Source: an uncultured Pseudomonadota bacterium
GTDB taxonomy: Bacteria; Pseudomonadota; Alphaproteobacteria; RF32; CAG-239
Assembly (NCBI GenBank): GCA_949295085.1
Contig: CASFJS010000001.1
Location: 9,121 to 73,120 of the forward strand
DNA length: 64,000 nt
Direction: 5' to 3'
How positions within the stretch are numbered: position 1 is the first letter of the stretch; every line of letters starts with the position of its first letter. This document shows positions 20,622-60,238 of this stretch, piece after piece. The notes beneath the pieces are model-generated. The model did no database searches and was not told where the DNA came from. It saw only the letters and a list, made by a program, of their open reading frames with translations. Both the position numbers and the translations under genes were made by a program.

Positions 20622-22274
20622 ATGACGTTGATGAAATATCAAAAATTTGATTGTGAGCAATATCTTTTAGATGAATATAAAAAAGACGGCAAAGAGCCGG
20701 TGTATTATCCGTGGATTGACGGCACAAGCCTCTTGGTTCCGAGTGCTTACAACGGCGATATGGAGACCTTTGAAGAAGATTTATTTGCTCATCCGGACAA
20801 GCAAAAAAAATATGACAGGTACAATGCCGCGCACCCCGACAACCCGATGGAAATACCGGAGCCGATTAAGTACCAAGATTTTTACATACTTCCCAAATTA
20901 AGCTATGTTCAAAAAGGCTTATCGGACAAAGAAATTATCCGTAAAACGCTGCAGGAAGTCCGGCGTCGTTATCGCGGCACGATCAAACAGACGGCGCGCA
21001 CCGCAAGAGAATATCCGCAGCAGTCATTCAGAGTCAAACTGACCAAAGAACACAAAGAAAAAATAAAAGCATTACATCATCGCCATCAACTCAAAAAATT
21101 AGGGCGGGGTATTGGCGAAATGTTTAAATTTACTGCCAAACAAACAGCAGAAATCTTAACCGGAGCGACCGGGGCTTTACCGGCCGTCACTTATTATCTT
21201 TTGGATAAAAAAGTTCATTTTGCCGAGAATAAGGCAAAAAGTTTTATCAACGAAAAAGCTTTGCCCTATATTCGTCGCGGCGCATTAAAAGCACTAATCC
21301 CGCTGAGTATATTTACGGCAATACGGGTAACGCCGGTTATAAAGCAAAACAAACAAGAAAAAATCGAAAGACAAGAGATTTTAGCTCGTGAACAGGCGGA
21401 AAAAGAGGCGTTCTTTGCCAAATACGACACGCGCAGCGAAGTTTTTTACCAAAATTATAAGCAGGCCAAAACCTTAGAATCAGAATTTCTGTGCCTGTTG
21501 TCGTGCTATGAAGATTATCACGAAAAAGCTTATAAATGCCAAGCCGGTGAATGGACAATCGGTTATGGTTCAAGACGTCTGGCCGACGGCCGCAAGGTGA
21601 CCAAAGGCATGACCATTACCCAAACCGAAGCGACACAAGCCGTTGCCAGACACATGGAAAAATATGTCTACCCACAATTTCGTCACATTACCAGAAAATT
21701 AACATCGGAACAACTCCTGGCTGTCAGTATGTTTATCTATAACACTGACGAAAGCGCATTTCAAAAATCAAAAGTCTGTTCGGCCGTTAATGCAAATGAA
21801 TCGGATGAGAAAGTCTGTGAAGCCTTTTCTTATTATCGCAGCGTCAACGGTAAGCGTAGTTATGGCCTGATTAACCGCCGCGGTTTTGAAGGACGTGTTT
21901 GGACATGCGGCGATATTTCATCTGTTTTAATACTGAGCCCGAATGTTGCCGGCAGCAAACATATCAAGTATTTTGAATATCCCAATGCCCGCAGCCGTGA
22001 TCCGATAGAAAACGACGATGGCACTTTTAGAGTGCGAAAAATCAAAGATGTTTCAAAAGATATGGAAAGATATAAAGTATCGTCAATTAATAAAAGTCTT
22101 CTCGGCAACATTCCCGAAGAATGCCGTAATGAATTGATAAAGAAATATGGCATCACCGAGCAAAACGGAACGTTGATTTGCCTAAACAACGACGCAAATG
22201 TCAACAAGCAAGGCAAAACAATTTCTTGGGAACAGGCGCAGGTACTGGCTCAAGCCCAAACACAAACTAAGTAG
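20622..22274 (+). CDS. membrane-associated protein with a central GH24 (T4/lambda-type) lysozyme domain (550 aa)
   Basis: Residues ~285-428 read YEDYHEKAYKCQAGEWTIGYGS...GMTITQTEA...LTSEQLLAVSMFIYNT...GLINRRGFEGRVW, matching the E-x8-D-x5-T lysozyme core. Hydrophobic segments lie at ~aa 180-195 and 222-238. The N- and C-terminal regions are of unknown family. Confidence 0.7.
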   Translation: MTLMKYQKFDCEQYLLDEYKKDGKEPVYYPWIDGTSLLVPSAYNGDMETFEEDLFAHPDKQKKYDRYNAAHPDNPMEIPEPIKYQDFYILPKLSYVQKGLSDKEIIRKTLQEVRRRYRGTIKQTARTAREYPQQSFRVKLTKEHKEKIKALHHRHQLKKLGRGIGEMFKFTAKQTAEILTGATGALPAVTYYLLDKKVHFAENKAKSFINEKALPYIRRGALKALIPLSIFTAIRVTPVIKQNKQEKIERQEILAREQAEKEAFFAKYDTRSEVFYQNYKQAKTLESEFLCLLSCYEDYHEKAYKCQAGEWTIGYGSRRLADGRKVTKGMTITQTEATQAVARHMEKYVYPQFRHITRKLTSEQLLAVSMFIYNTDESAFQKSKVCSAVNANESDEKVCEAFSYYRSVNGKRSYGLINRRGFEGRVWTCGDISSVLILSPNVAGSKHIKYFEYPNARSRDPIENDDGTFRVRKIKDVSKDMERYKVSSINKSLLGNIPEECRNELIKKYGITEQNGTLICLNNDANVNKQGKTISWEQAQVLAQAQTQTK

Positions 22275-41766: not shown

Positions 41767-44634
41767 TTAGTTTTCAATAACCTTAATTTGGATATTAACA
41801 CCATCCGTATTGTTATTCTTTCCGGCCTCCGACAAACTCTGCCGAAACTGCCGTTTGAGTTCCTCCGGTGTTAATGGCCTTTCGTTTGTTACCGGCGCCT
41901 CCAAAATATCTTTAAGCTCAGGGTTCTGAGAAAAACTTTCAACCTCATGTGCCAGATTGTCCAAAGCCTGTTCGGCCTGCTCGGCCTCGGCCGCTTTTAG
42001 TGTTTTGCGAGCTTTGGCAATAGCTTCTTCTGCCGTGTTTTTTTCTTCCTGCGTATCAAACAACGTATCCGGAAGAACATCTTCGGCATCAGCCTCCGCA
42101 GATTCGCTTACGGGCTGCGATTCGACAGAAACGCCATCAGGCTGACCTGACGGAATTTCTTCCTCGGTAATATTCGTCGCTGCCGTATATTGAGACGACT
42201 GTTCATCCACCGTATTTTCCGTGGTTTGGTCAGCAGATTCCGGCGCTGTTTGATTCGTCACCTCAGGGGGCACACCGTCTGCCGGAGCAGCTGTTGCCGT
42301 CTCAGGGGTGTTCGGCACTTCTGATTCGGTAACATTTGTTTCCACAGAATTTGACGCATCTTCCGTTACGGGAGTTGGTTCGGCTTCAGGTTCGGCTTCC
42401 GGTGTATCGACCTCTCCCGCAGAAGAAGATATATCCGCTGCCGGTCCATCCGTTTTAGTTTCCGCAATGCCGGATTCTGCTTCTTGCGAATGGTTATCTT
42501 CTTTTTCCGCGATATTTGTAGTCATATCTGTAGTCATATCTTCGCTGCCTGACGGAGACAACTCCCCTTGTTGCGTTTCTTCCGCCGCGGCACTGATAGA
42601 CTTAACCTCCTGTTCCGGCACATCTTCAACAACTTGCGGCGAAACAACCGGCTTTGTTATTTTTTTCGGCTGCGCCTCGGACAGTGTTTGCAACGGCTCA
42701 CCAGTCTTATTTGTCTGTTTGGTTTGATAGTCCGCAACCACTCCCGTCTCATTAAAAGCCTGCCAGGCCATACTCCATTTGTCGAAATTTTCTGTCGCCA
42801 AATCAATAACATGTTTTTTGTACTTGTCCTGATCAATCATTTGTTGAATATGTTTCAGGTTTTTATCCGTCGTTTTTATGTTCGAAAATTCTTCACAAGG
42901 CGCATGCGTAAAGAAAAACGAATTTAAAATATCATCAACATCACACAAACTGTAATCTATATCGGCTTTTTGCATGCCGGCGGGATGTATGGCCAACATA
43001 ACCTGATGTTCACGTTGAAGTTGGCGATAATATTCGGTTTCTTTGGTGGACAATCCCTGCGGCGTATTTAATCCTTCTATAATGAGGGTTGTATCTTTCA
43101 AATAGCCCTTTTGATCAAGCTGTCGGATGAAATTATCCAGCGCCCCGAACAAACAATTAATCTGATCGGCATAAGCATTGCGCCGCTCGTCAATAGACGA
43201 AAACTTGGCAAATGCGACATTTTTTTCGCTTAGCCATTGTGACATATTTTTCAAATGACAAAATTCATCATAAATATATGTTTCCGAGGGCAAATCGACA
43301 ACGGCAATATACGCCTGATTCCCGGACTGACGCTCAAGGCTGTCAATAATTTGATCAAAAACCCTAAAAGAATTGACCGTATAAATTTCATCGGGCTTAA
43401 AATTCATACTGACTCTAAATTGCGCCGGCAGAATAAAATCAGCCATTTTCAATATCGGATTCAAATTATCAACAAGCCCTGTGGAGGTAAGCCATTGCGC
43501 CGCAAGCAGTATGGTGGATTGCGCCGGAGAAAGATCGCCGCCGCTCCAAACCGTCGGAGCATTAATTTTTTGTTTGCAGAGAGCAACGGCCAACCTATTA
43601 TCCAAATAACAAACATCAATTCCTCTGGATTGGAAGACATTAAGGGCATACTCGTTTTTTCTCAAAAATGAGTACAACGAGCTGTCTTTCAAATAAATTT
43701 TATCTTTTTGCAAGATGTCAAAAATAAAATACTTATCCCGAACGGCCGACAGTTGCATGTGTTCTTCCGCGGCTTTGTCGGAATCCGGATTAAGCGATGA
43801 CACAACATTCAAAAACGGATTGTCAACAGGCTTGGTCATGGCATTGGGGTATAAAATAAAATTATTTTTTGTAAAGAAACCTATCGCATTATTAAAACTT
43901 TCCTGAATGTTAATCTTCTGTTTTGACACCTGAGCCATTGCTGCCAGATTATTGGGCGATGTTAAACTGTTAAAAGACAAAAATATCAAATTTTTTCCGA
44001 CAGCCTCATCCTTTAATATCGGACCGGATGCAACAGTCTTAAAATACTGCGAAGATGTATTGGCATAAGCTTCATTTAACACCCACCCCATGCAAAGAGC
44101 CATTAATATTGTCAGATACAGCAAAAACGAACGTCTGAGTTTATTGAAAAGCAACCAACAGATAACAAAGATAACACTCCCTATGATCCACAGCGAATAC
44201 TTATACAAAACAAGATTAACGTCATCACTGAAAACGCCGTTAAAAATAATCAGTAATCCGGAATGCTTTTCAAAGGAGGCAAACTGATTAACAAAGGCCA
44301 CACACAACAACGCAACCAGTAAAGCCAGAAACAGGTTCTGCAACCCGTGAATAAAAGAAGCCGTGAACATAAGAAGAAAACTGAACAAAGCAATCCCTGT
44401 ATAAATGTACAAAGCTTCGGTATTCAAAAAAAACGAAGAAGTAAAAATATTATAATTGCCGGAATTAGCAAACAACGTAAAATCAAGTGAAATCAAAAGC
44501 GCACAAAGAATGGTTTTTATGATAAGATCAAACAAATACCTGAAAACACGCATTTTTTTACTTGCTTGCACGGAGGCGGCACGAATTTGTTTTGCAGAAA
44601 ATTTTCGCGGATCTTCCAGATGAATATCATCCAT
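41767..44634 (-). CDS. large polytopic membrane protein (955 aa) with an extracytoplasmic domain and an acidic low-complexity tail
   Basis: ATG start. About 6 TM helices within aa 35-195, a ~420-aa soluble domain, a ~235-aa E/T/P/S/A-rich tract, and a helical C-terminus. It ends 18 nt upstream of yejE. Confidence 0.75.
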   Translation of the reverse strand: MDDIHLEDPRKFSAKQIRAASVQASKKMRVFRYLFDLIIKTILCALLISLDFTLFANSGNYNIFTSSFFLNTEALYIYTGIALFSFLLMFTASFIHGLQNLFLALLVALLCVAFVNQFASFEKHSGLLIIFNGVFSDDVNLVLYKYSLWIIGSVIFVICWLLFNKLRRSFLLYLTILMALCMGWVLNEAYANTSSQYFKTVASGPILKDEAVGKNLIFLSFNSLTSPNNLAAMAQVSKQKINIQESFNNAIGFFTKNNFILYPNAMTKPVDNPFLNVVSSLNPDSDKAAEEHMQLSAVRDKYFIFDILQKDKIYLKDSSLYSFLRKNEYALNVFQSRGIDVCYLDNRLAVALCKQKINAPTVWSGGDLSPAQSTILLAAQWLTSTGLVDNLNPILKMADFILPAQFRVSMNFKPDEIYTVNSFRVFDQIIDSLERQSGNQAYIAVVDLPSETYIYDEFCHLKNMSQWLSEKNVAFAKFSSIDERRNAYADQINCLFGALDNFIRQLDQKGYLKDTTLIIEGLNTPQGLSTKETEYYRQLQREHQVMLAIHPAGMQKADIDYSLCDVDDILNSFFFTHAPCEEFSNIKTTDKNLKHIQQMIDQDKYKKHVIDLATENFDKWSMAWQAFNETGVVADYQTKQTNKTGEPLQTLSEAQPKKITKPVVSPQVVEDVPEQEVKSISAAAEETQQGELSPSGSEDMTTDMTTNIAEKEDNHSQEAESGIAETKTDGPAADISSSAGEVDTPEAEPEAEPTPVTEDASNSVETNVTESEVPNTPETATAAPADGVPPEVTNQTAPESADQTTENTVDEQSSQYTAATNITEEEIPSGQPDGVSVESQPVSESAEADAEDVLPDTLFDTQEEKNTAEEAIAKARKTLKAAEAEQAEQALDNLAHEVESFSQNPELKDILEAPVTNERPLTPEELKRQFRQSLSEAGKNNNTDGVNIQIKVIEN

Positions 44635-49260: not shown

Positions 49261-50553
49261 TCATGTGTTAAAATACCGCAAATCGGTCTGATTGGCTTTT
49301 ACCGTTAACAACAGGGTATCTCCGTTGACACGTTGCGACAGTACCCGAGCGTGTTTGTATATTGCGGCCAATCTTTTGCCGTCAGCCGCCGGGATAGCAA
49401 GATTCATAATTTCCGCATCGGTCGCCAGACTGTCATCCATTTTCTGCAAAACGTCCTGCTTTCCCTCACCTGTCAAGGCTGACAAACAAACCATTCCGCC
49501 GACTTGCGCTTTAACGATAAGCTCGTCTTTTTTCCCCGACGGTAGCAAATCAATTTTATTCAAGACTTCCAGATATTTTGAAGAATGTACAACATCTTTC
49601 AAACCGAGCTTTTCAAGCACTTGCAAAACATCCTGACGTTGTTCCCGGCTATTGTCGGAAGCCGCATCGCGAACATGCACCACCAAATCAGCGGCCAAAA
49701 CCTCCTCAAGCGTTGCCCGAAAAGCCATAACCAATTCATGCGGCAAATCTGAAATAAAGCCGACCGTATCCGATAAGATAATTTCCCTGCCGGACGGCAG
49801 CTTAACTTTGCGCATCGACGGATCAAGCGTCGCAAACAACAGATCCTCGGCCAACATCTTACTGCCGGCAAGCAAATTAAACAAAGTCGACTTTCCGGCA
49901 TTGGTATACCCAACCAGCGCAACAACCGGATACGGCACCCTCTGACGAGCCGAGCGTTGAATTTGCCGCGTCTTTTTTACTTTTTCAAGCAGTCTTTTTA
50001 TTTTAACGATTTTTTCGTCAATCAAGCGTCTGTCAAGCTCAATCTGTGTTTCGCCGGGGCCTCCGAGAAAACCGGCGCCGCCGCGCTGACGTTCAAGATG
50101 CGTCCAGCTGCGCACCAACCGGCTTCGCTGATATGTCAAATGAGCCAGCTCAACTTGGAGTTTTCCCTCTTTGGTTTGTGCTCGTTCACCGAATATTTCC
50201 AATATCAGTGCCGGCCGGTCTATAACTTTTACCTGAAGTTTTTGTTCCAGATTACGCTGCTGAATGGGAGTCAGGTTTGTATCAATAATAACTAAAGTTA
50301 CACCACTTGTAATCAGTGTGTTTGCCAATCTTTCAATAACACCCTGCCCCATAAGCGTGGCCGGTTTTATGGTGCGCAAACGGACGATTTCTTTATAAAC
50401 GACATCCAAACTGATTGCCCGCGCCAAACCGACAGCTTCCTCCAAACGCGCCTCGGCCGACAACGCAATTCTTTGCTCTGCATAATCCGGAAAAACAACG
50501 GCAGCCCTTACAATTGATTTTTTGCCACCGTCAAGCAATGTTACCTCAGCCAC
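49261..50553 (-). CDS. hflX: GTPase HflX
   Basis: G1 motif GYTNAGKSTLFN, DTVGF and NKID. The GTG start directly abuts the hfq stop. Confidence 0.92.
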   Translation of the reverse strand: MAEVTLLDGGKKSIVRAAVVFPDYAEQRIALSAEARLEEAVGLARAISLDVVYKEIVRLRTIKPATLMGQGVIERLANTLITSGVTLVIIDTNLTPIQQRNLEQKLQVKVIDRPALILEIFGERAQTKEGKLQVELAHLTYQRSRLVRSWTHLERQRGGAGFLGGPGETQIELDRRLIDEKIVKIKRLLEKVKKTRQIQRSARQRVPYPVVALVGYTNAGKSTLFNLLAGSKMLAEDLLFATLDPSMRKVKLPSGREIILSDTVGFISDLPHELVMAFRATLEEVLAADLVVHVRDAASDNSREQRQDVLQVLEKLGLKDVVHSSKYLEVLNKIDLLPSGKKDELIVKAQVGGMVCLSALTGEGKQDVLQKMDDSLATDAEIMNLAIPAADGKRLAAIYKHARVLSQRVNGDTLLLTVKANQTDLRYFNT

Positions 50554-50769
50554 TTAAATCTCAACAGCTTCGCCTGGCATAATTGTCGAAACGGCATGCT
50601 TGTAAATCAACTGAGTGTGTCCGTCCCGCCGCAACAAAACGGCCGCCTCGTCAAACCAGGTAATAATACCCTGCAACTTAACCCCGTTAACCAAAAAAAC
50701 GGTTACCGCAATCTCTTTTTCTTTTAAATGATTTAAGAATTTCATTTCAATTTCTTGGTTTGTGCTCAT
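50554..50769 (-). CDS. hfq: RNA chaperone Hfq
   Basis: Sm1/Sm2 motifs: [17 protein letters not shown] and YKHAVSTI. 71 aa. Confidence 0.93.
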
Positions 50770-50842
50770 AGGTTTAGTTCCTTGTTGTCATTATTATTGT
50801 CTGATTATTTTAATATCATTTTTAAGGAGCTGTCAAAGATTT

Positions 50843-52198
50843 TTAGCAAAAAATCTTCTCGGCCTGCTTAACGGCCGCGGAATCGACATAAATCAAAAGC
50901 GAATCTCCTCTTTCCAATTTAGTCGTCGGATCGGCATAAATCAATGTCTCGCCTCGTAACAAGGCAAAAATCCGGCAAGTTTTCGGCAAACTTAATTCCC
51001 CTGTTTTTTTATCACAATACGTACTATCTTCTTCTACGTCGATTTCCCAGATTTCTCCCATTTCACGCGCCACCGAATAAGCCTCTTTGATTTTTGCCTT
51101 GCGAATTTCTTTTAAGACACGCGATATCGCCAAGGCGCTGCGGTCAACCAGAATATTATCGGTAATGTTAAACATTAAATTATTATACGACGGTGTGTTA
51201 ATAACCGAAATTGTTGTTCCGACCCCGTTTTTGGATGCCAATAAAGACGCCAGCAAATTATCCTTGTCATTATCGGTCAAAGCAATAACCGCATCGGCAT
51301 GACTGATATCGGCTTCTTTTAAGATAACGTCGCTCATCATTTCGCCATGTATAACCACCACATGATTCAAATTACGAGCCAATTTTCTGGCCTTATCAAT
51401 ATCTTCTTCAATCAGCCGGCATGAAACAATACTGTCATCAAGTTCTATCTGATCACCGATAAATTCTGCAATCTCATTACCGCCGAAAATAACCAATCTT
51501 TCGTTGGCCGGTTTTTCCAAACCGAAAGCAGCGATGGTGTTATAAACCTCATCGGCTTTGACCAAAATATTCACTTCATCGTTAACCTGCAAACTTTCAT
51601 ACATATCCGGCAAAAAGCTGATATCATGACGAATAATATTGATAAACCCGATATCCAAATCGGCCTGTCGCCCTATTTGTGACAACGGGACACCCAATAA
51701 CGGGCAATTTTCTTTAATATTCAACGTCATAACATAATAAGCATCATTCCAAACCGGCAATATTCCGGCACATCCCGGATACTGCAAAATTTTTAAGATA
51801 TTTGTTGCAATATCAATATCCGGTGAAATCAAAAGATCTATCGGCAGATGATTATCGTTATAAAGCATTCCCCACAACGGATCAATAAAAGTTTTACTCT
51901 TAATACTGGCAATTTTTTTAGGTATTTCAAACAATGTGTAAGCCAATAAACAAATAATCATATTCACTTCATCAACATCGGTCACGGCCAATATCATATC
52001 GCAATCTTTGGCGCCGGCTTTTTCCAAAACATCCGGATACGACGGTTTCCCCTGCACCGGTAAAATATCAAACTCCTTGGATATTTCATCAAGCGCATAC
52101 GCATCATCGTCAATAACCGTAATATCGTTATTACCTTTAACCAGATAACTAACGACGCTTCGTCCCAATTGTCCCGCACCGCAAACAATAATCTTCAT
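50843..52198 (-). CDS. trkA: Trk potassium uptake protein TrkA
   Basis: Two RCK/NAD-binding halves (IIVCGAGQLGRS and VIFGGNEIAEF). 451 aa. Confidence 0.9.
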   Translation of the reverse strand: MKIIVCGAGQLGRSVVSYLVKGNNDITVIDDDAYALDEISKEFDILPVQGKPSYPDVLEKAGAKDCDMILAVTDVDEVNMIICLLAYTLFEIPKKIASIKSKTFIDPLWGMLYNDNHLPIDLLISPDIDIATNILKILQYPGCAGILPVWNDAYYVMTLNIKENCPLLGVPLSQIGRQADLDIGFINIIRHDISFLPDMYESLQVNDEVNILVKADEVYNTIAAFGLEKPANERLVIFGGNEIAEFIGDQIELDDSIVSCRLIEEDIDKARKLARNLNHVVVIHGEMMSDVILKEADISHADAVIALTDNDKDNLLASLLASKNGVGTTISVINTPSYNNLMFNITDNILVDRSALAISRVLKEIRKAKIKEAYSVAREMGEIWEIDVEEDSTYCDKKTGELSLPKTCRIFALLRGETLIYADPTTKLERGDSLLIYVDSAAVKQAEKIFC

Positions 52199-53169
52199 TC
52201 CAGGGCTCCTTCCGTATGATGAGAAAAGAAACGATTTATTTCTTCCAAAGCTTGTTTCATATTGTCGATTTTAACATAACGCTCCCTAAACTTACGGGCA
52301 TCCCGAAAATTTTTGCAATACCAGCACACATACTTGCGCGCCAACCCCAGTGCAATGGGCTCACCGTAATAGGCAACCAATTCTTGCACATGTTTCAACA
52401 ACGTTGTTTTAATTGTATAAACATCAATTATCGGTTGTTCAATCCCTGTTTCCAGATAACTGTGTATCTGCGCAATCAGCCATGGTTGCCCGAGAGCAGC
52501 TCTCCCGACCATAACACCGTCGACCTTTGTATAATTTATCATTTGTTGTGCTTTTTGCGGACAATCGATATCCCCGTTCCCGATAACCGGAATCTTGACC
52601 GCATCCTTGACGGCGGCAATTGTATCCCAATCGGCCGTTCCGGAATACATTTCCGATCGGGTACGTCCGTGCACGGTCAAATAAGCCGCTCCGCAGTCTT
52701 CACACATCTTTGCAAACGCCACGGCATTGACGTTTTCACTGTCCCATCCTTTGCGAAATTTAACACTAACCGGCAAACTGACGGCATTTTTGACCGCCTC
52801 AATAATTTTGGCTGCCAAAATCATATCTTTCATCAAATACGCCCCCGAACGATTAGCAACGATTTTTTTTACCGGACACCCCATATTAATATCAATCGAA
52901 TAAGCCCCGAGCTCGGCAATTAATTTGGCCGCGTCGGCAAATATTGCCGGATCATTGCCGACCAACTGGACGACAACCGGATAATTTTCATCTCTGACGT
53001 CGGCAATTCTGTAAGTTTTTGGATTCCGCCGGGACAAAGCGTTAATCGCAACCATTTCCGAAACGATATTACCGCCGCCGAAAGAATGAACCAACCGACG
53101 CATCGGCTTATCGGTAATTCCGGCCATCGGTGCTAAAAAAACTTTGCTGTTCAATCCGCCTATAGCCAT
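52195..53169 (-). CDS. dusB: tRNA-dihydrouridine synthase B
   Basis: FLAPMAGITDKPMR and NMGCPVKK, with a Dus TIM barrel plus a helical C-terminus. The stop overlaps the trkA start. Confidence 0.9.
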   Translation of the reverse strand: MAIGGLNSKVFLAPMAGITDKPMRRLVHSFGGGNIVSEMVAINALSRRNPKTYRIADVRDENYPVVVQLVGNDPAIFADAAKLIAELGAYSIDINMGCPVKKIVANRSGAYLMKDMILAAKIIEAVKNAVSLPVSVKFRKGWDSENVNAVAFAKMCEDCGAAYLTVHGRTRSEMYSGTADWDTIAAVKDAVKIPVIGNGDIDCPQKAQQMINYTKVDGVMVGRAALGQPWLIAQIHSYLETGIEQPIIDVYTIKTTLLKHVQELVAYYGEPIALGLARKYVCWYCKNFRDARKFRERYVKIDNMKQALEEINRFFSHHTEGALE

Positions 53170-53523
53170 TTATACCCTAAAATCAAAATTTTGGTTGTTA
53201 TCAAAAATAAGCCCGTCAATCACCGAAGATTTTTTGTCAATACCCTCGGCATACCGGTACGCGCCGGCGGCATAACCATTATCGGTCGCCACAGCCTTAC
53301 CCAGCAACATATAAGCATTTTCGCTGTTTATAAGTTCATAGGATTGCACTTCCGTATACGAGACAAACCGGACTCTATCCGGTAGTCTGTCTGTATCCGT
53401 AGTTGAGATTTCCGTTTTACCGGGATATTGCTGCCGTTTGATTCGAGCCGCCGTTTCGGCAATCTGCCGGTGCAAACTATTAACATAATCATGAACGGAA
53501 GTCTGCGCCACACCAAGCCTCAA
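53170..53523 (-). CDS. hypothetical protein (about 113-117 aa), start uncertain (TTG 53523 or GTG 53511)
   Basis: The ORF exactly fills the gap between the giant gene's stop (53526) and the dusB ATG (53169). There is no ATG near its 5' end and no family is recognised. Confidence 0.4.
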   Translation of the reverse strand: MRLGVAQTSVHDYVNSLHRQIAETAARIKRQQYPGKTEISTTDTDRLPDRVRFVSYTEVQSYELINSENAYMLLGKAVATDNGYAAGAYRYAEGIDKKSSVIDGLIFDNNQNFDFRV

Positions 53524-53525
53524 AT

Positions 53526-56500
53526 CTAATTAAGTTTGTTAAGAGCTTTTGCCAAAACATAATACAAACGTCCGAGATCTGCCCCCGAAATAACAGCCAT
53601 CAAAGCTGCCGAATGCTCATTTTTCTTTGATTTATCAACCAAAGCCTCAAACTCGCTCATATATGTATTTACCAATTTGCGCAAATCGTCATTTTTTTCA
53701 AACTCTTTCCGCAATGCCGCAATCTGAGTACTTGTCATATTTTTGGCTATAGCCCGGATGAAGACTTCGGTATCTCCGTTATAAAACTTTTTCCATAAAT
53801 CTTCCTCATCTTTCGGATTAAGCAATCTGCTGATATCAACAGAAACACTTTCCAAGCGGTTAATAATTTTTCCGGCATCTTTAAGAAAAGTATCAACCTT
53901 AATGTCTTTATAGGCTGCTGTTAACCCTTTCATGGCTTTCTCGGCCTTAAGGGCGTTTTCGCTCAAAGTTTTGGTCTGAATATTAACCGTATCGTTAAAG
54001 CGCAGACTTTCTTTGACAATTTCCTGTCCTTGAGTCTCAAAAGCCTTTCCGGCATCAACCAAATTGCTGATACACTTTTCCACCTTATTTGTCGTATCAT
54101 CGGCCAGCGCCGTTAACGCCTGAGATTGCTTAACAAACACCTCGCCGGAAGACAAAATCGTATTTGAAATACGCTCGGCATTGGCCGCAATCTCGTTAAC
54201 GGAAGCCCTGAGCTTGTCGCCGGATTTTTCCAAATGTGTCGCACTGAGCCTGGCCGCATCCTCCATCTCCAGTCCCAGCTTTTTAAGATCTTTACCCAAG
54301 CTGCTTACTTTGTCATAAGCATCATTGGCCCTTTCTGCCAATTGATTTGAGGTATCGCTCAAAACCGTATTAAAGCAATCAACAAGTTTTTTGGTATCAT
54401 CAGAAATTTTAACCATCTTATCGCTTTGTGCCGAGATCAAATGATTAATCTCAACCACGCCGGTTGAAGTCTCAGCCGTCACGGTATTAAATCCGGCAAT
54501 GTATTTTTCATATTCATTAAATACCCCGCCGATATTCTCAACCGAATGAAAAATCGTGGTATCCAAATCTTCGCTGCATTGGCTGAGGCGTAAACTGACC
54601 TGATCAATGTTTTTGACGGAATCTTTTGAGGCCTTATTAATCGCGTCACATGCTTTTAACAAGCGATCACCCAACACGTCAAATTCATAAGAAAGCTTGT
54701 TGGTAGCCTCAAAAATACCATTGGTGTTATCTTTAAATCCCGCATTGATTTCCTGTATTTTTGCCGCCGTTTCAACCGTTGCGTCGGTCAAATATTTATA
54801 TTGTTGTGCCAAAGATGCCTCGCCGAGACGAGCCTGAGTAGCCAGATTATTGACCACCTCGGATATATTGTTTTTCTGACTTTCCAGCATTCCGGCAATA
54901 CTCTCGCCCTGTGAAGCCAGTTTAACTCCGATTGTCTCCATATACTTGGTCTGTTCATTCATCTTTTGCCACAAATTATCATTATCTTTGGCCAAACTCT
55001 GATAAAGATCTTTAAGCCTGGTCGAACTGCCGCTGATTTGTTGTACCATATCGCCGACATTATCTTTCATCATGGCCACGGTCGTATTAAAACCGGCCAA
55101 ATGCTCATCGATTGTGGTATTAACGCTTCCGAGTTTATTAATTGCCTCATCAACGACTTTTTCGGTCTGTTGGTGTTTGTTTGTCAGCATCTTTTCAATA
55201 TCGGCCAATTCTTGAATTGATTTTTGAGAATTTGCCACAACCGTTTCGGCGCGGCGACCGGTATCTTCTTCCAAAATAACTAATCTGGCAAACAATTTAT
55301 CGGCACTTTCTTCAATACCTGACATTTGTTTTTTCAAAATATCGGCCATTTTATTTGTATTTTCCGAAATTTTATCACAATAGGCATAAAAATCGGCCTC
55401 CTGCTGCCGGAACAAAATATTAAGATTTGCTGTTTTTTCATCCAAGCCCGAAGCCACTTCACTGATATATTTGGCCGCAGATTGTGAAATATCGCTGATA
55501 TTGATACTCTTAGCTTCAAAATCGCTGATTGATTTATTCAATATGGTTTCAGAGTTGGCCGTTGTTTCGTTGAGTTTTTGCGTCTGTTCCACCAGTGTTT
55601 TATTAATTTGTTCACTGACGCTGCCGATATGCGTCGCCAAAGCCTCCATATTTTGCGCCTGTTTGGTCAAAATATCTTCAAATTGTGTAACTTTTGCCAA
55701 AGTCTTATTGGCCGAGGTATCAAACACGCCGGCCTGCTCGGCCAAATTACTGTTAATGCTCTGGCTTTTGGCAATGGCATCATTACATTGCCCCAGCATT
55801 TTAGCGATATTTGATTTCAACAGCTCCAGAGTATTAACCGCATCTCTTTCCAGACTCCCCGACGCTGTTGACAATTCGTCTATCTGTCGTTTCAGCTCGT
55901 TTTTAATTTCTTCAACCCTTGCGGCCGTATCGGTAATATGTTTCTGCTGCTGAGCCAGCGATGCTTCGCTGATTTGACTCTGTGTTACCACAATGGATGA
56001 TGCCTCTGTCAGATTATTGGTGTATTTTTGCATCAACCCGCTAATCTGATTCATGCTTTCAACCGATTGGGCCGTCTGCACCATCAGGTTTTCCGTTGCG
56101 GTATTAATCCCCTTTCCGACTTCCTGCAACTGATTCATCCCGGCGGCAACGGATTTCTGCAAATTATCATAACGTTTATGAATAACATCGGTTAAATCAA
56201 CAATTTTATTAACACCGTCATGACTGATACGCTCAAAATCGGAAGTCTTTTCCTGCAACGTTCCGACATAAGACAGAATATCGCTGTTGGCAGCCAAAAC
56301 TTTTTCGTCCAGAGACGCAATATTGGCATTCAACGCCGTTTCAACTTCTTGCATGGAAGCAACCACCTTATCCGAAACACCGTTTAAATTTGAAACCTGC
56401 AAGGCCACGGCATCTTCCAGATTAGAGCTCCGCACCATGAGCCGGTCCAGCTCTTGGGCAATCATCTCGCCATGCGCCGTAAACTTTTTACTGACGCCGT

Positions 56501-57704
56501 CCGTTTTTTCTTCCAACACTTTCACTAAAGAAACAATATCTTTATTACGTTTGGCCAACGCCTCATTCACTTTTTGAATCTGCAAATCAATCGTGTCATC
56601 AATATTGTTCATGCTGTTTTTGAGGTTGTTGTTGATAATACCGATATTGGCCACGGCCGATTTGGTAATTTCCTCCGTCTTGTCTTTAGCTTCTTTGGCA
56701 GCAGCTTCCAACACCTGATAAAGCTGTTGATTATGTTTTTGCAACGCATCGTCAAGACTGGTTATTTCTTTGCTTGTCGTCTCTTTCAAATTTTCACACT
56801 TATTAACCGCCGCATCGGCAGCTTGCCGGAGTTGTGATGTCTGAGCCGTAAGCATATTATGCACGGCATTAAACGTCACATTGGCTCGTTCGACAAAGTT
56901 TTTTAAATTTTCCCCGGTCTTTGCGGCATCTTCGGCCGAACCGGACAATATGGTTTTAAAATCTTCGGATGTCTGCTTAATTTCCCGCAGCGACGGCAAC
57001 AATCTTTCAAATACATCTTTGAGCGAATTTTCCAAATTGTTACCGCCGGAAATAAATTCCTGATTGATTTTGGCAAAATTTTGCGTTGAATCTTGAGCCT
57101 TGTTCAACAAATTTTCAAAATTAGCCATCAAAAATTTAACCCCCTCGCTCAATTCGACAATAGTCTTTGACGAGTAATTATCCAAAGTCCCTATCAACTT
57201 GGCAAACTCATCAATGTTTCCTTTAATGGAATCCTTAATTTTTGATGTTTGCTCATGTGCCAGCTTGGAAACCTGCTGCAGCTCCACAACTTGCGAACGA
57301 ATGGCATCTGCCATGGCTTTAGCCGTCTGCGGGGCACCCTCCTCCGGGTAAACAAGCTGATTCATATAAGCGCGCAAAAACTTCGCTTCATGCTTAAACG
57401 ACGTTCCCCTGTCAATATAAGCCATCACCACCCAGATAATAGCCAGAGGCAAGGTCACACCGGCCAAAAAGCCGCCAAACTCATCCGGCATCATCAAAAA
57501 TAAATTTGACCATCCGAAAAACTGCGTAATATAGATTAACACAATGGCAAACCATACCACGCTGACACTAATCATCAGCTTATGCAGATTGTTATTCAAC
57601 CATGATTCCGGTTCTTCAATCTCCGCCGGAGGTGTATTTTCTTTCATAAATTGCGGCAAAACCGTAACATTACCGTCGGTCGTCTTGGCAGCTCTCTCGG
57701 ACAT
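53526..57704 (-). CDS. giant membrane-anchored alpha-helical/coiled-coil protein (1,392 aa from ATG 57704)
   Basis: The track ORF starts at TTG 57737, and I trimmed it to MSERAAKTTDG. Numbering below follows the 1403-aa track ORF. Two or three TM helices lie at aa ~55-108. About 1,150 aa of heptad-like, Q/N/E/K/S/T-rich sequence follows, with internally duplicated motifs. The globular-looking C-terminal ~110 aa includes DLWKKFYNGDTEVF... Confidence 0.8.
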   Translation of the reverse strand: MSERAAKTTDGNVTVLPQFMKENTPPAEIEEPESWLNNNLHKLMISVSVVWFAIVLIYITQFFGWSNLFLMMPDEFGGFLAGVTLPLAIIWVVMAYIDRGTSFKHEAKFLRAYMNQLVYPEEGAPQTAKAMADAIRSQVVELQQVSKLAHEQTSKIKDSIKGNIDEFAKLIGTLDNYSSKTIVELSEGVKFLMANFENLLNKAQDSTQNFAKINQEFISGGNNLENSLKDVFERLLPSLREIKQTSEDFKTILSGSAEDAAKTGENLKNFVERANVTFNAVHNMLTAQTSQLRQAADAAVNKCENLKETTSKEITSLDDALQKHNQQLYQVLEAAAKEAKDKTEEITKSAVANIGIINNNLKNSMNNIDDTIDLQIQKVNEALAKRNKDIVSLVKVLEEKTDGVSKKFTAHGEMIAQELDRLMVRSSNLEDAVALQVSNLNGVSDKVVASMQEVETALNANIASLDEKVLAANSDILSYVGTLQEKTSDFERISHDGVNKIVDLTDVIHKRYDNLQKSVAAGMNQLQEVGKGINTATENLMVQTAQSVESMNQISGLMQKYTNNLTEASSIVVTQSQISEASLAQQQKHITDTAARVEEIKNELKRQIDELSTASGSLERDAVNTLELLKSNIAKMLGQCNDAIAKSQSINSNLAEQAGVFDTSANKTLAKVTQFEDILTKQAQNMEALATHIGSVSEQINKTLVEQTQKLNETTANSETILNKSISDFEAKSINISDISQSAAKYISEVASGLDEKTANLNILFRQQEADFYAYCDKISENTNKMADILKKQMSGIEESADKLFARLVILEEDTGRRAETVVANSQKSIQELADIEKMLTNKHQQTEKVVDEAINKLGSVNTTIDEHLAGFNTTVAMMKDNVGDMVQQISGSSTRLKDLYQSLAKDNDNLWQKMNEQTKYMETIGVKLASQGESIAGMLESQKNNISEVVNNLATQARLGEASLAQQYKYLTDATVETAAKIQEINAGFKDNTNGIFEATNKLSYEFDVLGDRLLKACDAINKASKDSVKNIDQVSLRLSQCSEDLDTTIFHSVENIGGVFNEYEKYIAGFNTVTAETSTGVVEINHLISAQSDKMVKISDDTKKLVDCFNTVLSDTSNQLAERANDAYDKVSSLGKDLKKLGLEMEDAARLSATHLEKSGDKLRASVNEIAANAERISNTILSSGEVFVKQSQALTALADDTTNKVEKCISNLVDAGKAFETQGQEIVKESLRFNDTVNIQTKTLSENALKAEKAMKGLTAAYKDIKVDTFLKDAGKIINRLESVSVDISRLLNPKDEEDLWKKFYNGDTEVFIRAIAKNMTSTQIAALRKEFEKNDDLRKLVNTYMSEFEALVDKSKKNEHSAALMAVISGADLGRLYYVLAKALNKLN

Positions 57705-57761
57705 CCGATATATTCCCCATACAAATAAATTCCCCAAAGCCCACCATCAGGCTCCGGGGTT

Positions 57762-57789
57762 ATTATAAGCACAAATTTTAAAATTGGAA
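57762..57789 (-). promoter_or_regulatory. putative promoter of the giant gene
   Basis: Minus strand: TTCCAA (57789-57784), 16-nt spacer, TATAAT (57767-57762), about 55 nt upstream of ATG 57704. Confidence 0.35.
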
Positions 57790-57830
57790 ACACAATCAGC
57801 CGAAAGATATCGTTTATCCACAAGGAATAT

Positions 57831-58010
57831 TTAATTTTCTTCCTGTTTTTTCAAAAGATACAACAGCTTTTGCAGGGCTCTGGCCTGCATTTGTTCTTCT
57901 GGCAGATCCGCGGGCACCACAACAACAGCTTCAACACCGGTATCCGGCTCAATGGCCGTAACTCTGACCGAAGCCCCGTGTCGCATATATTCAAACAAAA
58001 CCTTTGACAT
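57831..58010 (-). CDS. small hypothetical protein (59 aa)
   Basis: Trimmed to MSKVLFEYMRHGASVRVTAIEPDTGVEAVVVVP. It lies immediately after parC, and the longer GTG form overlaps the parC stop. Confidence 0.5.
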   Translation of the reverse strand: MSKVLFEYMRHGASVRVTAIEPDTGVEAVVVVPADLPEEQMQARALQKLLYLLKKQEEN

Positions 58011-58015
58011 CTGCC

Positions 58016-60238
58016 TCACTTCAAAAATTTATTATCCTTTGAAAATCCGAAAGGCGCCAATTTTCCGACCTGTGCCCGATGTCCGAGCCATGTCAGCAAA
58101 TCCTTTTCCACGCTGATACCGCCGGATCGGCTGTAACTGAAACCGTCCGCTTCGTTAAAGAACTGGATATCGCTCAATCCGCCGTCTTTATACTTTTGCA
58201 AGCAAACACCGCGTCCCCGGGCAATTGTCGGAATTTCTTCCGTTTTAAAGACCAATATTTTCCGGTTGTCGCCAATCATGGCGACCATATTGCCCGTAAC
58301 TTTCTTACAAAACATTGTTTTTTCGCCTTCAACGACGTTCATAATTTTTCGCCCTTGCCTTGTTTGGGCTGTCAAATGGTTTTCATCGACAATAAACCCG
58401 TAGCCCTTATCGGTCGCAACCAAATAATCTGCTCCGGGCTCAAAAACAAACATTTCGGTCACGGTATCCGTATTGCCCAAATCAATCATCAACCGCAGCG
58501 GTTGGCCGAACCCCCGTCCGGATGGAATATCACAGGCATTGATATTAAAGAATTTTCCGGCGGTATCAAACAACACAATTTTATCGGTTGTCTGAGCATG
58601 AATGGCTTTGAGCAGCCTGTCATCATCCTTAAACTTAAATTCATCGGTTAAAGAAGCGTACCCTTTCATACAGCGTATCCAGCCTTTTTCCGATAAAATA
58701 ACCGTTATCGGTTCTTTTTCAACCAATGCCTCTATGGAAATATCAATATTATCAACATCAAGTTCGGCAAATTCTGTTCGGCGCCGTCCCAAAGCCGTCT
58801 TTTTACCGAATTTCTCTCTAATGTTCTTAATTTCTTCGGCCACTTTCTGCCAACGTTTGCTTTCATCGGCCAACAAAGCGTCAAGCTCGGCCTTTTCGGC
58901 CGTCAATTCGTCAAACTCCCGCCGAATATCGGCTTCTTCAAGTTTGCGCAGATTCCTGAGTTTCATGTTAAGGATAGATTCGGCTTGCACATCGGTTAAT
59001 GAAAACCGCTCTGCCAACACGACCTTAGGCTCGTCTTCTTCACGAATAATCCGAATAATCTCGTCTATATTGAGATAGGCAATCAAATAGCCGGATAAAA
59101 TTTCCAACCGGTTGACAATCTTCATCAGCCGGTATCCCGAACGCCGCTCCAGCACTTTCAGCCGATGGTTCAAAAATTCGCGCAAAACCTCGGCGATACT
59201 CATAACCCTCGGCACGCCGTCAGAATCCAACACATTCATATTCATGTTGAATTTTGCTTCCAGCTCGGTATTTTTAAACAACAGTTCCATCAGCATATTA
59301 GCGTCGACATTGCGGTTTTTAGGCTCCAGCACAATTCGGACATCCTGCGCCGATTCATCACGCACGTCATTTAAAAGCGGCAGCTTTTTTTCTTGCAACA
59401 ACAACGCAATTTTTTCAATTAACTTTGATTTGACAACCTGATAAGGTATCTCTGTAACCACAATCTGATACTGCCCCATACCGAGGTCTTCTTTTTGCCA
59501 TTTGGCGCGGACACGAAAATTACCTTTTCCCGTGGTATAAGCATCCAAAATCGTTGCAAACTTATCAACAACAACACCGCCGGTCGGAAAATCCGGCCCT
59601 TTGATTTTGCGCACCAGACTTTCAACCGTCACATCCGGCTTTTCAATCATCAAAAGCAGTGCGTCACACACTTCCGCCAGATTATGCGGCGGAATATTGG
59701 TCGCCATACCGACGGCAATACCGCTTGAACCGTTGCATAACAAATTCGGTACCGCTCCGGGCATCACCACGGGCTCTTGTTCTTCGCCGTCATAAGTATC
59801 TCTGAAATCAACCGCATTTTCATTCAAGCCTTCCATCAATGCCATGGCAAATTCGGTCAGTCTGGCCTCGGTATAGCGCATAGCGGCCGGACTGTCTCCG
59901 TCAATATTACCAAAGTTCCCCTGCCCGTCCACCAACGGATAGCGCACCGAAAAATCCTGTGCCAAACGACACATGGCGCCATAAACGGCGCTGTCGCCGT
60001 GCGGGTGGTATTTACCGATAACATCGCCGACTACTCGAGCGCATTTTTTAAAACCGGACTTCGGATCCAGATGTAATTGGCGCATTGCATACAACAGGCG
60101 GCGGTGCACCGGTTTTAGGCCGTCGCGCACATCCGGCAGCGACCGCGCAACAATGGTTGACATTGCATAAGACAAATAGCGGCTGCTTAATTCCTCGGCC
60201 AAAGCCACGTTTTTTACTTTTTCATCTGTTTGAGGCAT
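58016..60238 (-). CDS. parC: DNA topoisomerase IV subunit A
   Basis: [19 protein letters not shown], with active-site Tyr region [10 protein letters not shown]. 740 aa with a ParC-type C-terminal beta-pinwheel. Confidence 0.93.

What the first reader, a model, noticed from the sequence alone, without database searches (positions are those of the whole stretch)
53526..57704. 1,392-aa membrane-anchored coiled-coil giant with internal module duplication, co-transcribed with dusB-trkA
After 2-3 N-terminal TM helices the protein is about 1,150 aa of uninterrupted helical, heptad-like sequence. Recognisable repeats occur, numbered on the 1403-aa track ORF. QISEASLAQQQKHITDTAARVEEIKNE (aa 588-614, nt ~55890-55976) matches RLGEASLAQQYKYLTDATVETAAKIQEINAG (aa 970-1000, nt ~54738-54830). 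HLAGFNTTVA (aa ~880) matches YIAGFNTVTA (aa ~1080). These imply ~190-380-aa duplicated modules. The protein ends in a distinct ~110-aa domain (DLWKKFYNGDTEVFIRAI...GADLGRLYYVLAKAL). In size and architecture it resembles the apolipoprotein-like polar-growth scaffold proteins of Rhizobiales (GPR/RgsE type). That resemblance is analogy from memory, not demonstrated homology. It has its own predicted promoter and runs straight into a small ORF, dusB and trkA.
Basis: partly seen in the sequence, partly recalled or inferred. Interest (0 to 1): 0.65.

Follow-up and report, generated by a model that had tools for sequence, protein, structure and literature searches.

The report
Gut-bacterial relative of GPR pole scaffold
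This 1,392-residue membrane-anchored rod protein from an uncultured gut alphaproteobacterium is a distant relative of GPR/RgsE, the giant protein that organises the growing cell pole in Agrobacterium and Sinorhizobium; its rod follows an unusual 25-residue repeat and its length is conserved to the residue.

Summary
The ORF is real: 53526..57704 on the minus strand, ATG start, 1,392 aa. It has two N-terminal TM helices and a roughly 1,170-aa rod with almost no proline. It ends in a compact, all-helical C-terminal domain of about 125 aa.

The C-terminal domain aligns to the published Agrobacterium GPR sequence with hhalign probability 99.4% (E 3.5e-21). The TM-hairpin module matches collinearly but weakly.

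Neither end module is modelled in Pfam or NCBIfam, and neither has a relative among solved structures. Together they define a family of at least 660 cluster representatives. In that family the rod between the modules ranges from 17 to about 1,050 aa.

The rod is not heptad-based. Its hydrophobic period is 25/7 = 3.57 residues, and it stays in phase for about 900 residues. GPR's rod has a period near 3.65.

In the gut clade the rod length is fixed to the residue. The distance between anchor residues is 1,218 aa in one class and 1,156 aa in the other.

The other is at chance level. The linkage to dusB-trkA is specific to this clade.

Verdict: a new, uncharacterised member of a known family, of moderate interest.

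The parts
53526..57704 (-). CDS of the 1,392-aa GPR/RgsE-family protein (stop codon 53526-53528)
   Evidence: ORF list and translation. 120 full-length homologues with the same start were listed.
57582..57704 (-). Variable acidic N-terminal tail, aa 1-41, with the conserved LPQFM motif
   Evidence: Family alignment.
57414..57581 (-). TM hairpin, aa 42-97. It consists of TM1 (42-64), a short uncharged/acidic loop (NLFLMMPDEFGG) and TM2 (76-97). It is nearly invariant across the clade.
   Evidence: Hydropathy and invariant columns. It is the core of the N-module that retrieved 660 cluster representatives.
56715..57413 (-). Juxtamembrane helix and rod segment 1, aa 98-330. Positive charges (R99, K104, K108, R111) follow TM2. 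The conserved motif is RAYMNQLVYPEDGAPQTAKAMADAIRSQVVELQ. The 25/7 phase is about 170 degrees.
56589..56774 (-). Variable zone or hinge, aa 311-372. It is the site of the 62-aa deletion in the 1,331-aa subclade and of a 22-aa insertion in P0105. The hydrophobic phase jumps by about 140 degrees here.
53913..56588 (-). Rod segment 2, aa 373-1264. About 36 consecutive 25-residue units (hydrophobic positions 1, 4, 8, 11, 15, 18, 22, 25) hold one phase within about +/-35 degrees. The segment has almost no indels across the clade.
   Evidence: AlphaFold2 gives a continuous helix for aa 1131-1264.
55929..56012 (-). Conserved motif copy 1, aa 565-592 (...TQSQISEASLAQQQKHITD)
54783..54866 (-). Conserved motif copy 2, aa 947-974 (...TQARLGEASLAQQYKYLTD), 382 residues after copy 1
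53529..53912 (-). C-terminal helical cap domain, aa 1265-1392 (invariant W1304, G1310, F1315, Y1381). It is homologous to the C-terminus of Agrobacterium GPR.
   Evidence: AlphaFold2 pLDDT 86, pTM 0.79. hhalign to GPR 99.4%. HMM hits in 46 distant family members. No PDB or viral structural relative.
57762..57790 (-). Promoter-like site TTTCCA-17-TATAAT, 58 nt upstream of the ATG
   Evidence: Consensus scan only. Function not shown.
57732..57759 (-). 12-bp GC-rich hairpin with a T-rich tail between the DUF6898 ORF and the giant gene. It may terminate the parC-DUF6898 unit, and it overlaps the promoter-like site.
   Evidence: Inference only.
53170..53523 (-). 117-aa ORF wedged between the giant gene and dusB. 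It evolves fast, belongs to no known family, and is present in most but not all related loci.
50843..53169 (-). dusB (52195-53169) and trkA (50843-52198), tightly packed downstream genes. This is context, not part of the protein's family signature.
   Evidence: Pfam Dus 1.9e-93; TrkA_N and TrkA_C. Synteny.

Best explanation
The gene encodes the non-Rhizobiales form of the GPR/RgsE family of giant membrane-anchored cytoskeletal scaffolds. It comes from an uncultured gut alphaproteobacterium; NCBI places the one named relative among the related MAGs, Ca. Scatocola, under Rhodospirillales.

Shown here:
- An N-terminal hairpin of two TM helices.
- A rod of about 1,170 residues with almost no proline. 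Its hydrophobic period is 25/7, equivalent to three heptads plus a 4-residue stutter. The rod is coherent in two blocks separated by a variable hinge at aa ~311-372.
- A compact helical C-terminal domain of about 125 aa, homologous to the C-terminus of GPR.

Inferred:
- The short loop without positive charge and the cluster of R/K after TM2 place both termini, and so the whole rod, in the cytoplasm. The same topology is predicted for GPR.
- The constant a/d stripe at 3.57 residues per turn indicates a homo-oligomeric, slowly winding left-handed coiled coil. If straight, it would be up to about 170 nm long. A lipid-bound amphipathic helix is less likely.
- The residue-exact conservation of rod length means the rod must pack in a fixed register with copies of itself or with a partner. 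It would then act as a strut or ring segment of defined size.
- By analogy with GPR, the rod drives self-assembly and the C-terminal cap is the functional interaction module. The TM hairpin, the most conserved part, docks the assembly to a membrane partner; in Sinorhizobium, RgsE binds TolQ.

Most likely role: a membrane-attached scaffold that marks or shapes a pole or envelope-growth zone. Whether growth in this organism is polar is unknown.
For: - Family membership: C-domain versus GPR gives 45 and 89.7 bits and hhalign 99.4%, E 3.5e-21. N-module versus GPR gives 19.8 bits and 61%, E 8e-5.
- The two modules co-occur. Of the top 150 N-module hits, 46 also carry the C-module at their extreme C-terminus.
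- Topology: two TM helices, and the charge distribution read from the sequence. GPR is predicted to have the same topology (PMC8262873).
- Rod: the 25/7 period has power 8.3 against a shuffle maximum of 2.0. Similarity peaks fall at lags of 25, 50, 75 and so on. The register is visible by eye and the phase is stable over aa 370-1270.
- The same 3.565-3.575 peak appears in nearly all non-Rhizobiales family members.
- Length constraint: 17 sequences have exactly 1,218 residues between the invariant Pro of TM2 and the invariant Trp of the C-domain. Eleven have exactly 1,156, including cluster representatives under 50% identical to each other. One has 1,156 + 25.
- Function by homology: GPR forms a ring at the growth pole. 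Its C-terminus is needed for function but not for focus formation (PMC8262873). RgsE localises to the growing pole and interacts with TolQ, RgsA and RgsS (PMC7327166).
Against: - No experiment exists for this clade; every member is an uncultured MAG.
- Krol et al. found no other Rgs proteins in the orders that hold the distant RgsE homologues. They suggested a different role there.
- The N-module match to GPR is weak.
- The rod differs from GPR's. Its period is 3.57 against about 3.65. No Apolipoprotein (PF01442) match appears in the window protein's own Pfam scan. It has no Pro-rich linker before the C-domain.
- The oligomeric state, the straightness of the rod and its localisation are not predicted by anything run here.
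- The helical state of most of the rod is inferred from composition and periodicity. Only aa 1131-1392 were modelled.
Confidence: 0.6

Rival explanations
1. The protein is a true family member with a different job. Outside Rhizobiales, the protein would be a length-defined membrane-to-cytoplasm tether or ruler, for example spacing the nucleoid, a division-site marker or a polar organelle from the membrane. It would not organise polar peptidoglycan synthesis.
For: - Other Rgs proteins are absent from the orders that hold the distant RgsE homologues, and the authors raise a different role (PMC7327166).
- Rod length is exact within the clade but ranges from 17 to about 1,050 aa across the family, as expected for a spacer tuned to each lineage.
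- No conserved gene neighbour is shared across the family.
Against: - The two end modules, which are the functional parts in GPR, are conserved. That argues for conserved partners.
- Nothing here points to a specific alternative target.
Confidence: 0.3
2. The rod is an apolipoprotein-like, lipid-binding protein. Its amphipathic helices would lie on, or wrap, membrane or lipid droplets. This is the idea proposed for GPR.
For: - Sub-threshold Apolipoprotein and ApoLp-III matches occur in several family members.
- GPR is classified in PF01442, and a lipid role was proposed for it (PMC8262873).
Against: - The window protein has no PF01442 match at E <= 0.1.
- Its period is 3.57, not the 11/3 = 3.67 of apolipoprotein-type 11/22-mers.
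- A hydrophobic stripe at 3.57 winds around a straight helix. It therefore cannot stay on a flat surface over 900 residues.
Confidence: 0.08
3. The likeness to GPR is convergent. This would be a generic membrane-anchored coiled-coil protein, or a member of another long-helix family such as ZorA, SMC, methyl-accepting chemotaxis proteins or phage tape-measure proteins.
For: - Rod-only matches exist. PADLOC ZorA models score up to 54 bits, E 2e-15.
- NCBIfam ZorA_1 scores 31 bits and SMC 30 bits.
- PHROG tape-measure families reach E 3.7e-6.
Against: - All these matches cover only the coiled-coil parts of the models and fall far below the cut-offs (31 versus 190 bits; 30 versus 567 bits).
- The protein has no MotA/TolQ-type domain, no SMC head and no MCPsignal domain.
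- The ZorA tail is described as a right-handed coiled coil with a 4-4-3 leucine spacing (PMC11946911), whereas this rod's period is 3.57.
- The gene sits in housekeeping synteny in 79 loci.
- The non-repetitive C-domain gives a 99.4% hhalign match to GPR.
Confidence: 0.03

Closest known systems
GPR (growth pole ring protein, Atu1348) of Agrobacterium tumefaciens
   Same: [quoted passage not shown]
- More than 1,000 residues of continuous helix.
- A homologous C-terminal domain of about 115-125 aa at the extreme C-terminus (hhalign 99.4%).
- A weakly homologous TM2/juxtamembrane module.
   Different: - GPR has 2,115 aa, against 1,392 here.
- GPR's rod peaks at a period of about 3.65 and has visible 22-residue apolipoprotein-like repeats (PF01442). 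This rod has strict 25-residue units with a period of 3.57.
- GPR has a Pro-rich linker of about 110 aa before the C-domain; this protein has none.
- GPR's ring formation and role in polar growth are demonstrated. Nothing has been demonstrated for this protein.
RgsE (SMc00190) of Sinorhizobium meliloti
   Same: RgsE is the orthologue of GPR (42% identity to it), so the family relationship is the same. Krol et al. already reported 'more distant homologs' in Rhodospirillales and Emcibacterales. This protein fits that description.
   Different: RgsE has 2,089 aa and up to ten apolipoprotein domains. Its partners are RgsA, RgsS and TolQ. The other Rgs proteins were not detected outside Rhizobiales.
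TipN of Caulobacter crescentus
   Same: Analogous architecture (two N-terminal TM helices plus a large coiled-coil region) and an analogous role as a new-pole landmark. Described as 'analogous' to GPR in PMC13170164.
   Different: Homology was not tested here because no TipN sequence was available. TipN is shorter, at 882 aa.
ZorA tail (Zorya anti-phage system)
   Same: A long, membrane-anchored cytoplasmic helical tail (about 70 nm) whose length matters for function. ZorA is the best-scoring named profile on the rod.
   Different: ZorA has a MotA/TolQ-like motor domain and is described as a right-handed pentameric coiled coil. The matches cover only the tail part of the models and fall far below the family cut-offs. 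There is no zorBCD context.
Scy/FilP polarisome proteins of Streptomyces (from my own knowledge; not tested)
   Same: Very long bacterial cytoskeletal coiled coils with a regular non-heptad repeat (51 residues in Scy), involved in polar growth.
   Different: They are not membrane-anchored and belong to a different phylum. The repeat differs (51/14 = 3.64 against 25/7 = 3.57). No sequence relationship was examined.

Membership tests
GPR/RgsE family | [quoted passage not shown] | tested here: met
   Hydropathy gives TM helices at aa 42-64 and 76-97. The loop has no K/R, and four K/R follow TM2. The topology itself is inferred from the positive-inside rule.
GPR/RgsE family | More than 1,000 residues of continuous alpha-helix | tested here: met
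   No proline between aa 238 and 1296. An amphipathic period of 3.57 is sustained over aa ~100-1270. AlphaFold2 gives an unbroken helix for aa 1131-1264. The remainder of the rod was not modelled.
GPR/RgsE family | Conserved C-terminal domain homologous to the GPR C-terminus | tested here: met
   hmmsearch gives 45.3 bits (narrow profile) and 89.7 bits (broad profile). hhalign gives 99.4%, E 3.5e-21, over 115 columns.
GPR/RgsE family | Homologous TM-hairpin and juxtamembrane module | tested here: inconclusive
   The match to GPR aa ~128-233 is collinear but weak: 19.8 bits and hhalign 61%, E 8e-5.
GPR/RgsE family | Multiple Apolipoprotein A1/A4/E (PF01442) domains along the rod | tested here: not met
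   The window protein has no PF01442 match at E <= 0.1. Some homologues have only sub-threshold matches. The period is 25/7, not 11/3. I treat this as a trait of the Rhizobiales branch, not of the wider family.
GPR/RgsE family | Ring or focus at the growth pole; shape defects on depletion or overproduction | not testable with these tools
   All clade members are uncultured MAGs.
GPR/RgsE family | Interaction with TolQ, RgsA and RgsS | not testable with these tools
   Known only for S. meliloti RgsE.
ZorA (Zorya) | MotA/ExbB/TolQ-type membrane motor domain; score above the family cut-off | tested here: not met
   NCBIfam ZorA_1 scores 31 bits against a cut-off of 190, and the match is on the rod only. 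PADLOC matches cover only the tail part of the models.
Phage tape-measure protein | Phage tail-module context and a strong tape-measure profile match | tested here: not met
   The best PHROG match is E 3.7e-6 on a 250-aa stretch of rod. The neighbours are parC, dusB, trkA, hfq and hflX in 79 loci.
Methyl-accepting chemotaxis protein / SMC | MCPsignal domain, or SMC ATPase head and hinge | tested here: not met
   No Pfam match. SMC equivalogs score 22-31 bits against cut-offs of 567-729.

The most novel reading that the evidence does not exclude
The ancestral GPR-type protein of Alphaproteobacteria would be a molecular ruler: a membrane-anchored coiled coil built from 25-residue (seven-turn) quanta. 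Its exact length, fixed to the residue over hundreds of gut species, would set a cellular dimension such as ring diameter, pole curvature or cell width. The two uncharacterised end modules would be the docking sites. The apolipoprotein-like ring protein of Rhizobiales would then be a derived version in which the rod was rebuilt from 22-residue units.
Probability: 0.15. Interest if true: 0.75.

Novelty: new member of a known kind. Interest (0 to 1): 0.45.

Why it matters
GPR/RgsE has been studied only in polar-growing Rhizobiales. There it is described by its apolipoprotein-like repeats.

This locus shows that the family is really defined by two terminal modules that no database models: a TM hairpin and a C-terminal helical cap. 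The rod between them is replaceable in length and in repeat type.

The family is a universal, syntenic core gene of a large uncultured gut and rumen clade. That gives a sequence handle, in the form of the two profiles, for tracing the family across Alphaproteobacteria.

The short natural versions (326-700 aa) are a tractable route to the structure of the end modules. The exact-length 25-residue rod yields a clear hypothesis that can be tested by inserting or deleting units.

Tried and rejected
- Word-indexed protein searches with the C-domain profile and with an N+C mini-profile returned only fragments and no named relatives. They added nothing.
- PDB sequence searches with the N profile, the C profile and the whole protein found nothing.
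- Foldseek of the C-domain model against the PDB and viral libraries gave no match with E < 0.1. The best TM-score was 0.46, to a MIC60 helical bundle at E 1.3. I do not consider that meaningful.
- The first AlphaFold2 run, with only close homologues, gave an unreliable C-domain (pLDDT 43-70). The model from the diverse alignment superseded it.
- A literature search for a 25-residue coiled-coil periodicity found no papers.
- I looked for a gene neighbour conserved across the wide family. Three distant loci have unrelated contexts.
- I tested whether rod lengths across the wide family are multiples of 25. They are not; the distance modulo 25 is scattered. Within the gut clade the classes are exact, and one member differs by exactly 25.
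- The EASLAQQ motif is confined to the gut clade and a few relatives. It is absent from GPR.
- The ZorA-tail similarity was examined and rejected as generic.

Full report
**The object.** The minus strand carries an open frame at 53526..57737. The ATG at 57704 gives a 1,392-aa protein beginning MSERAAKTT. All full-length homologues begin at the equivalent MS(D/E/N) residue.

- Hydropathy shows two TM helices, aa 42-64 and 76-97. They are joined by a loop of about 11 residues (NLFLMMPDEFGG) that has no positive charge.
- Four R/K residues follow TM2 within 14 residues. By the positive-inside rule both termini are cytoplasmic.
- The protein has only ten prolines, and none lies between residues 238 and 1296.
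- Pfam and NCBIfam give no match above a cut-off.

**The rod.** The rod is not a heptad repeat.

- The family-profile similarity autocorrelation peaks at lags of 25, 50, 75, 100, 125 and 150.
- The Fourier spectrum of core hydrophobic residues has one sharp peak at 3.57 residues, which is 25/7. Its power is 8.3, against a mean of 1.06 and a maximum of 1.97 in 200 shuffles. Power at 3.50 and 3.67 is near zero.
- Stacked in rows of 25, the hydrophobic positions fall at 1, 4, 8, 11, 15, 18, 22 and 25. That is three heptads plus a four-residue stutter.
- The local phase is constant near 170 degrees over aa ~96-345. It jumps by about 140 degrees at aa ~320-370. It then stays within about 15-85 degrees from aa 370 to 1270, roughly 36 consecutive units.
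- AlphaFold2 models aa 1131-1264 as a single helix with pLDDT 70-93.

- The first repeat is real. Aa 565-592 against 947-974 (lag 382; TQSQISEASLAQQQKHITD against TQARLGEASLAQQYKYLTD) scores 61. The per-lag best-window distribution is 5.9 +/- 8.8, and the next best score is 33.
- Both copies contain residues that are invariant in the family.
- Weak positive similarity extends over about 250 residues upstream of the motif. This is compatible with an old duplication.
- The motif is confined to the gut clade and a few relatives.
- The second repeat (HLAGFNTTVA against YIAGFNTVTA) is at chance level. Its profile score of 9.2 is matched at 523 of 1,180 lags, and the first copy is not conserved.

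**The close family.**

- The first protein search returned 209 hits. The 120 listed are nearly all full-length proteins of 1,322-1,458 aa at 43-100% identity. None carries an informative name.
- A scan of one genome per GTDB species found 294 confirmed stretches, from two search patterns per gene. The 79 loci kept are all uncultured alphaproteobacterial MAGs from human, ruminant, rabbit, chicken and other guts. One is 'Candidatus Scatocola', which NCBI places in Rhodospirillales.
- Gene order is kdsA-recO-parC-DUF6898-giant-(small ORF)-dusB-trkA-hfq-hflX in essentially all of these loci.
- The giant protein diverges about as fast as TrkA (38-82% identity) but hardly ever gains or loses residues. 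Among 25 diverse members, 16 have no indel at all after residue 100. The rest show only indels of 3, 4, 11 or 22 (15+7) residues, or one 62-residue deletion in the hinge.
- The distance from the invariant Pro of TM2 to the invariant Trp of the C-domain is exactly 1,218 residues in 17 sequences. It is exactly 1,156 in 11 sequences, including representatives of different 50%-identity clusters. It is 1,181 (1,156 + 25) in one sequence.

**The wider family.**

- An exhaustive HMM search of 1.84 billion cluster representatives with the N-terminal profile (aa 1-200) found 660 proteins at E <= 1e-3 and 221 at E <= 1e-10.
- Among the best 150, 46 also carry the C-terminal domain. It always lies within 13 residues of their C-terminus.
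- The rod between the two modules ranges from 17 to about 1,020 residues in these proteins. Total lengths are 326-1,519 aa.
- Nearly all of them show the same 3.565-3.575 hydrophobic period.
- One cluster includes a protein of the cultured Rhodospirillales species Roseospira visakhapatnamensis.
- The genomic contexts of three distant members are unrelated to each other and to dusB. The dusB linkage therefore reflects clade-level synteny, not a functional module of the family.

**Link to GPR/RgsE.**

- The GPR paper describes two N-terminal TM helices, 1,700 aa of continuous helix and a functionally essential C-terminus (PMC8262873). Its Fig. S3 prints the GPR sequence.
- After OCR clean-up (2,099 of 2,115 residues), GPR's last ~115 residues match the gut-clade C-domain HMM at 45.3 bits. 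They match the broad family profile at 89.7 bits.
- hhalign gives probability 99.4% and E 3.5e-21 over 115 columns. The shared landmarks are SLSVD, LW.RY..G....F.R, EFR..V.RY...FE.L and SD.GK.Y..LA.
- GPR's TM2 and juxtamembrane helix align collinearly with the N-module, but weakly: 19.8 bits, and hhalign 61%, E 8e-5.
- Krol et al. reported distant RgsE homologues in Rhodospirillales and Emcibacterales without other Rgs proteins, and suggested a different role there (PMC7327166). The present protein belongs to that uncharacterised branch.
- Differences from GPR: GPR's rod peaks at a period of about 3.65 with overt 22-residue repeats. GPR also has a Pro-rich linker before the C-domain, which this protein lacks.

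**The C-terminal domain.** With a 47-sequence diverse alignment, AlphaFold2 gives a compact bundle. The end of the rod helix packs against six shorter helices (mean pLDDT 86, pTM 0.79). Foldseek finds no convincing relative in the PDB (best E 0.29) or among viral models (best E 0.61). Profile searches of PDB sequences find nothing. Pfam has no model for either end module, in this protein or in GPR.

**Mechanism.** This is inference, graded by strength.

- Strong: the protein is a membrane-anchored cytoplasmic rod of the GPR/RgsE family.
- Moderate: the rod forms a homo-oligomeric coiled coil. A 3.57-residue stripe implies a left-handed supercoil much gentler than a heptad coil. Such a stripe cannot remain on a flat lipid surface for 900 residues, which argues against the apolipoprotein-like surface-helix model.
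- Moderate: the residue-exact length and the 25-residue quantum mean that register and length are under selection. That is expected for a strut or ring segment that must meet copies of itself or a partner at both ends.
- Weaker, by analogy with GPR and RgsE: assembly is rod-driven, the C-cap is the effector or docking module, and the near-invariant TM hairpin binds a membrane partner such as TolQ. The cellular role would be a pole or growth-zone scaffold.

**Rivals rejected.** Matches to ZorA, SMC, LmuB, JetC and tape-measure profiles cover only coiled-coil parts of those models and lie far below the cut-offs. The ZorA tail is described as a right-handed coiled coil with a 4-4-3 leucine spacing, unlike this rod.

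**Transcription.** A promoter-like TTTCCA-17-TATAAT lies at 57790-57762. It overlaps a 12-bp hairpin with a T-rich tail that could terminate the parC-DUF6898 unit. Such sites are no more frequent here than in shuffled sequence. Downstream, the stop and start codons of the giant gene, the 117-aa ORF, dusB and trkA abut or overlap. Co-transcription is therefore plausible but untested.

**Verdict.** This is a new, uncharacterised member of a known family. Its notable features are the 25/7 rod, the exact length, and two end modules that no database models. Interest is moderate.

Noticed in passing
window 53170-53523 (-); related loci L001-L079, between the giant gene and dusB: A small ORF sits between the giant gene and dusB. 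It is 104-120 aa in the close clade and 171-200 aa in the 40-44%-identity clade, and it is absent from eight loci. It evolves fast (25-50% identity) and shares an N-terminal 'L..QI..SV..IK.K'-like helix. It has no match in Pfam, NCBIfam, PHROGs or PADLOC. It could be a partner of the giant protein.
   Followed up: partly
window 57831-58019 (-): A 62-aa DUF6898 protein (Pfam E 6.7e-21) overlaps the end of parC and lies immediately upstream of the giant gene. It is conserved at that position in nearly all related loci.
   Followed up: partly
window 57732-57790 (-): A 12-bp GC-rich hairpin with a T-rich tail overlaps the promoter-like hexamers upstream of the giant gene. It may be a terminator and promoter packed together.
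   Followed up: no
window 41767-44634 (-): A 955-aa ORF has a multi-TM N-terminal half and a long acidic, Pro/Glu/Thr-rich low-complexity C-terminal half. It has no Pfam match at E <= 1e-5.
   Followed up: no
window 20622-22274 (+): A 550-aa protein with a Phage_lysozyme domain (aa 296-421) lies in a lower-GC stretch (0.41 against about 0.50 in its neighbours), next to fatty-acid synthesis genes and dsbD.
   Followed up: no
window 49261-53169 (-): dusB is followed directly by trkA-hfq-hflX, with no ntrBC/ntrYX genes between them. From my own knowledge, many Alphaproteobacteria have the order nifR3-ntrBC-ntrYX-trkA-hfq-hflX, so this looks like a reduced version of it.
   Followed up: no
family members P0310, P0237, P0272, P0225 and others: Natural mini-versions of the family (326-560 aa) keep both end modules but have rods of only 17-235 residues. 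They are convenient targets for structural work.
   Followed up: partly
window 53526-57704 (-), rod: PADLOC ZorA models are the best-scoring named profiles on the rod (up to 54 bits). Only the tail part of those models is matched.
   Followed up: yes
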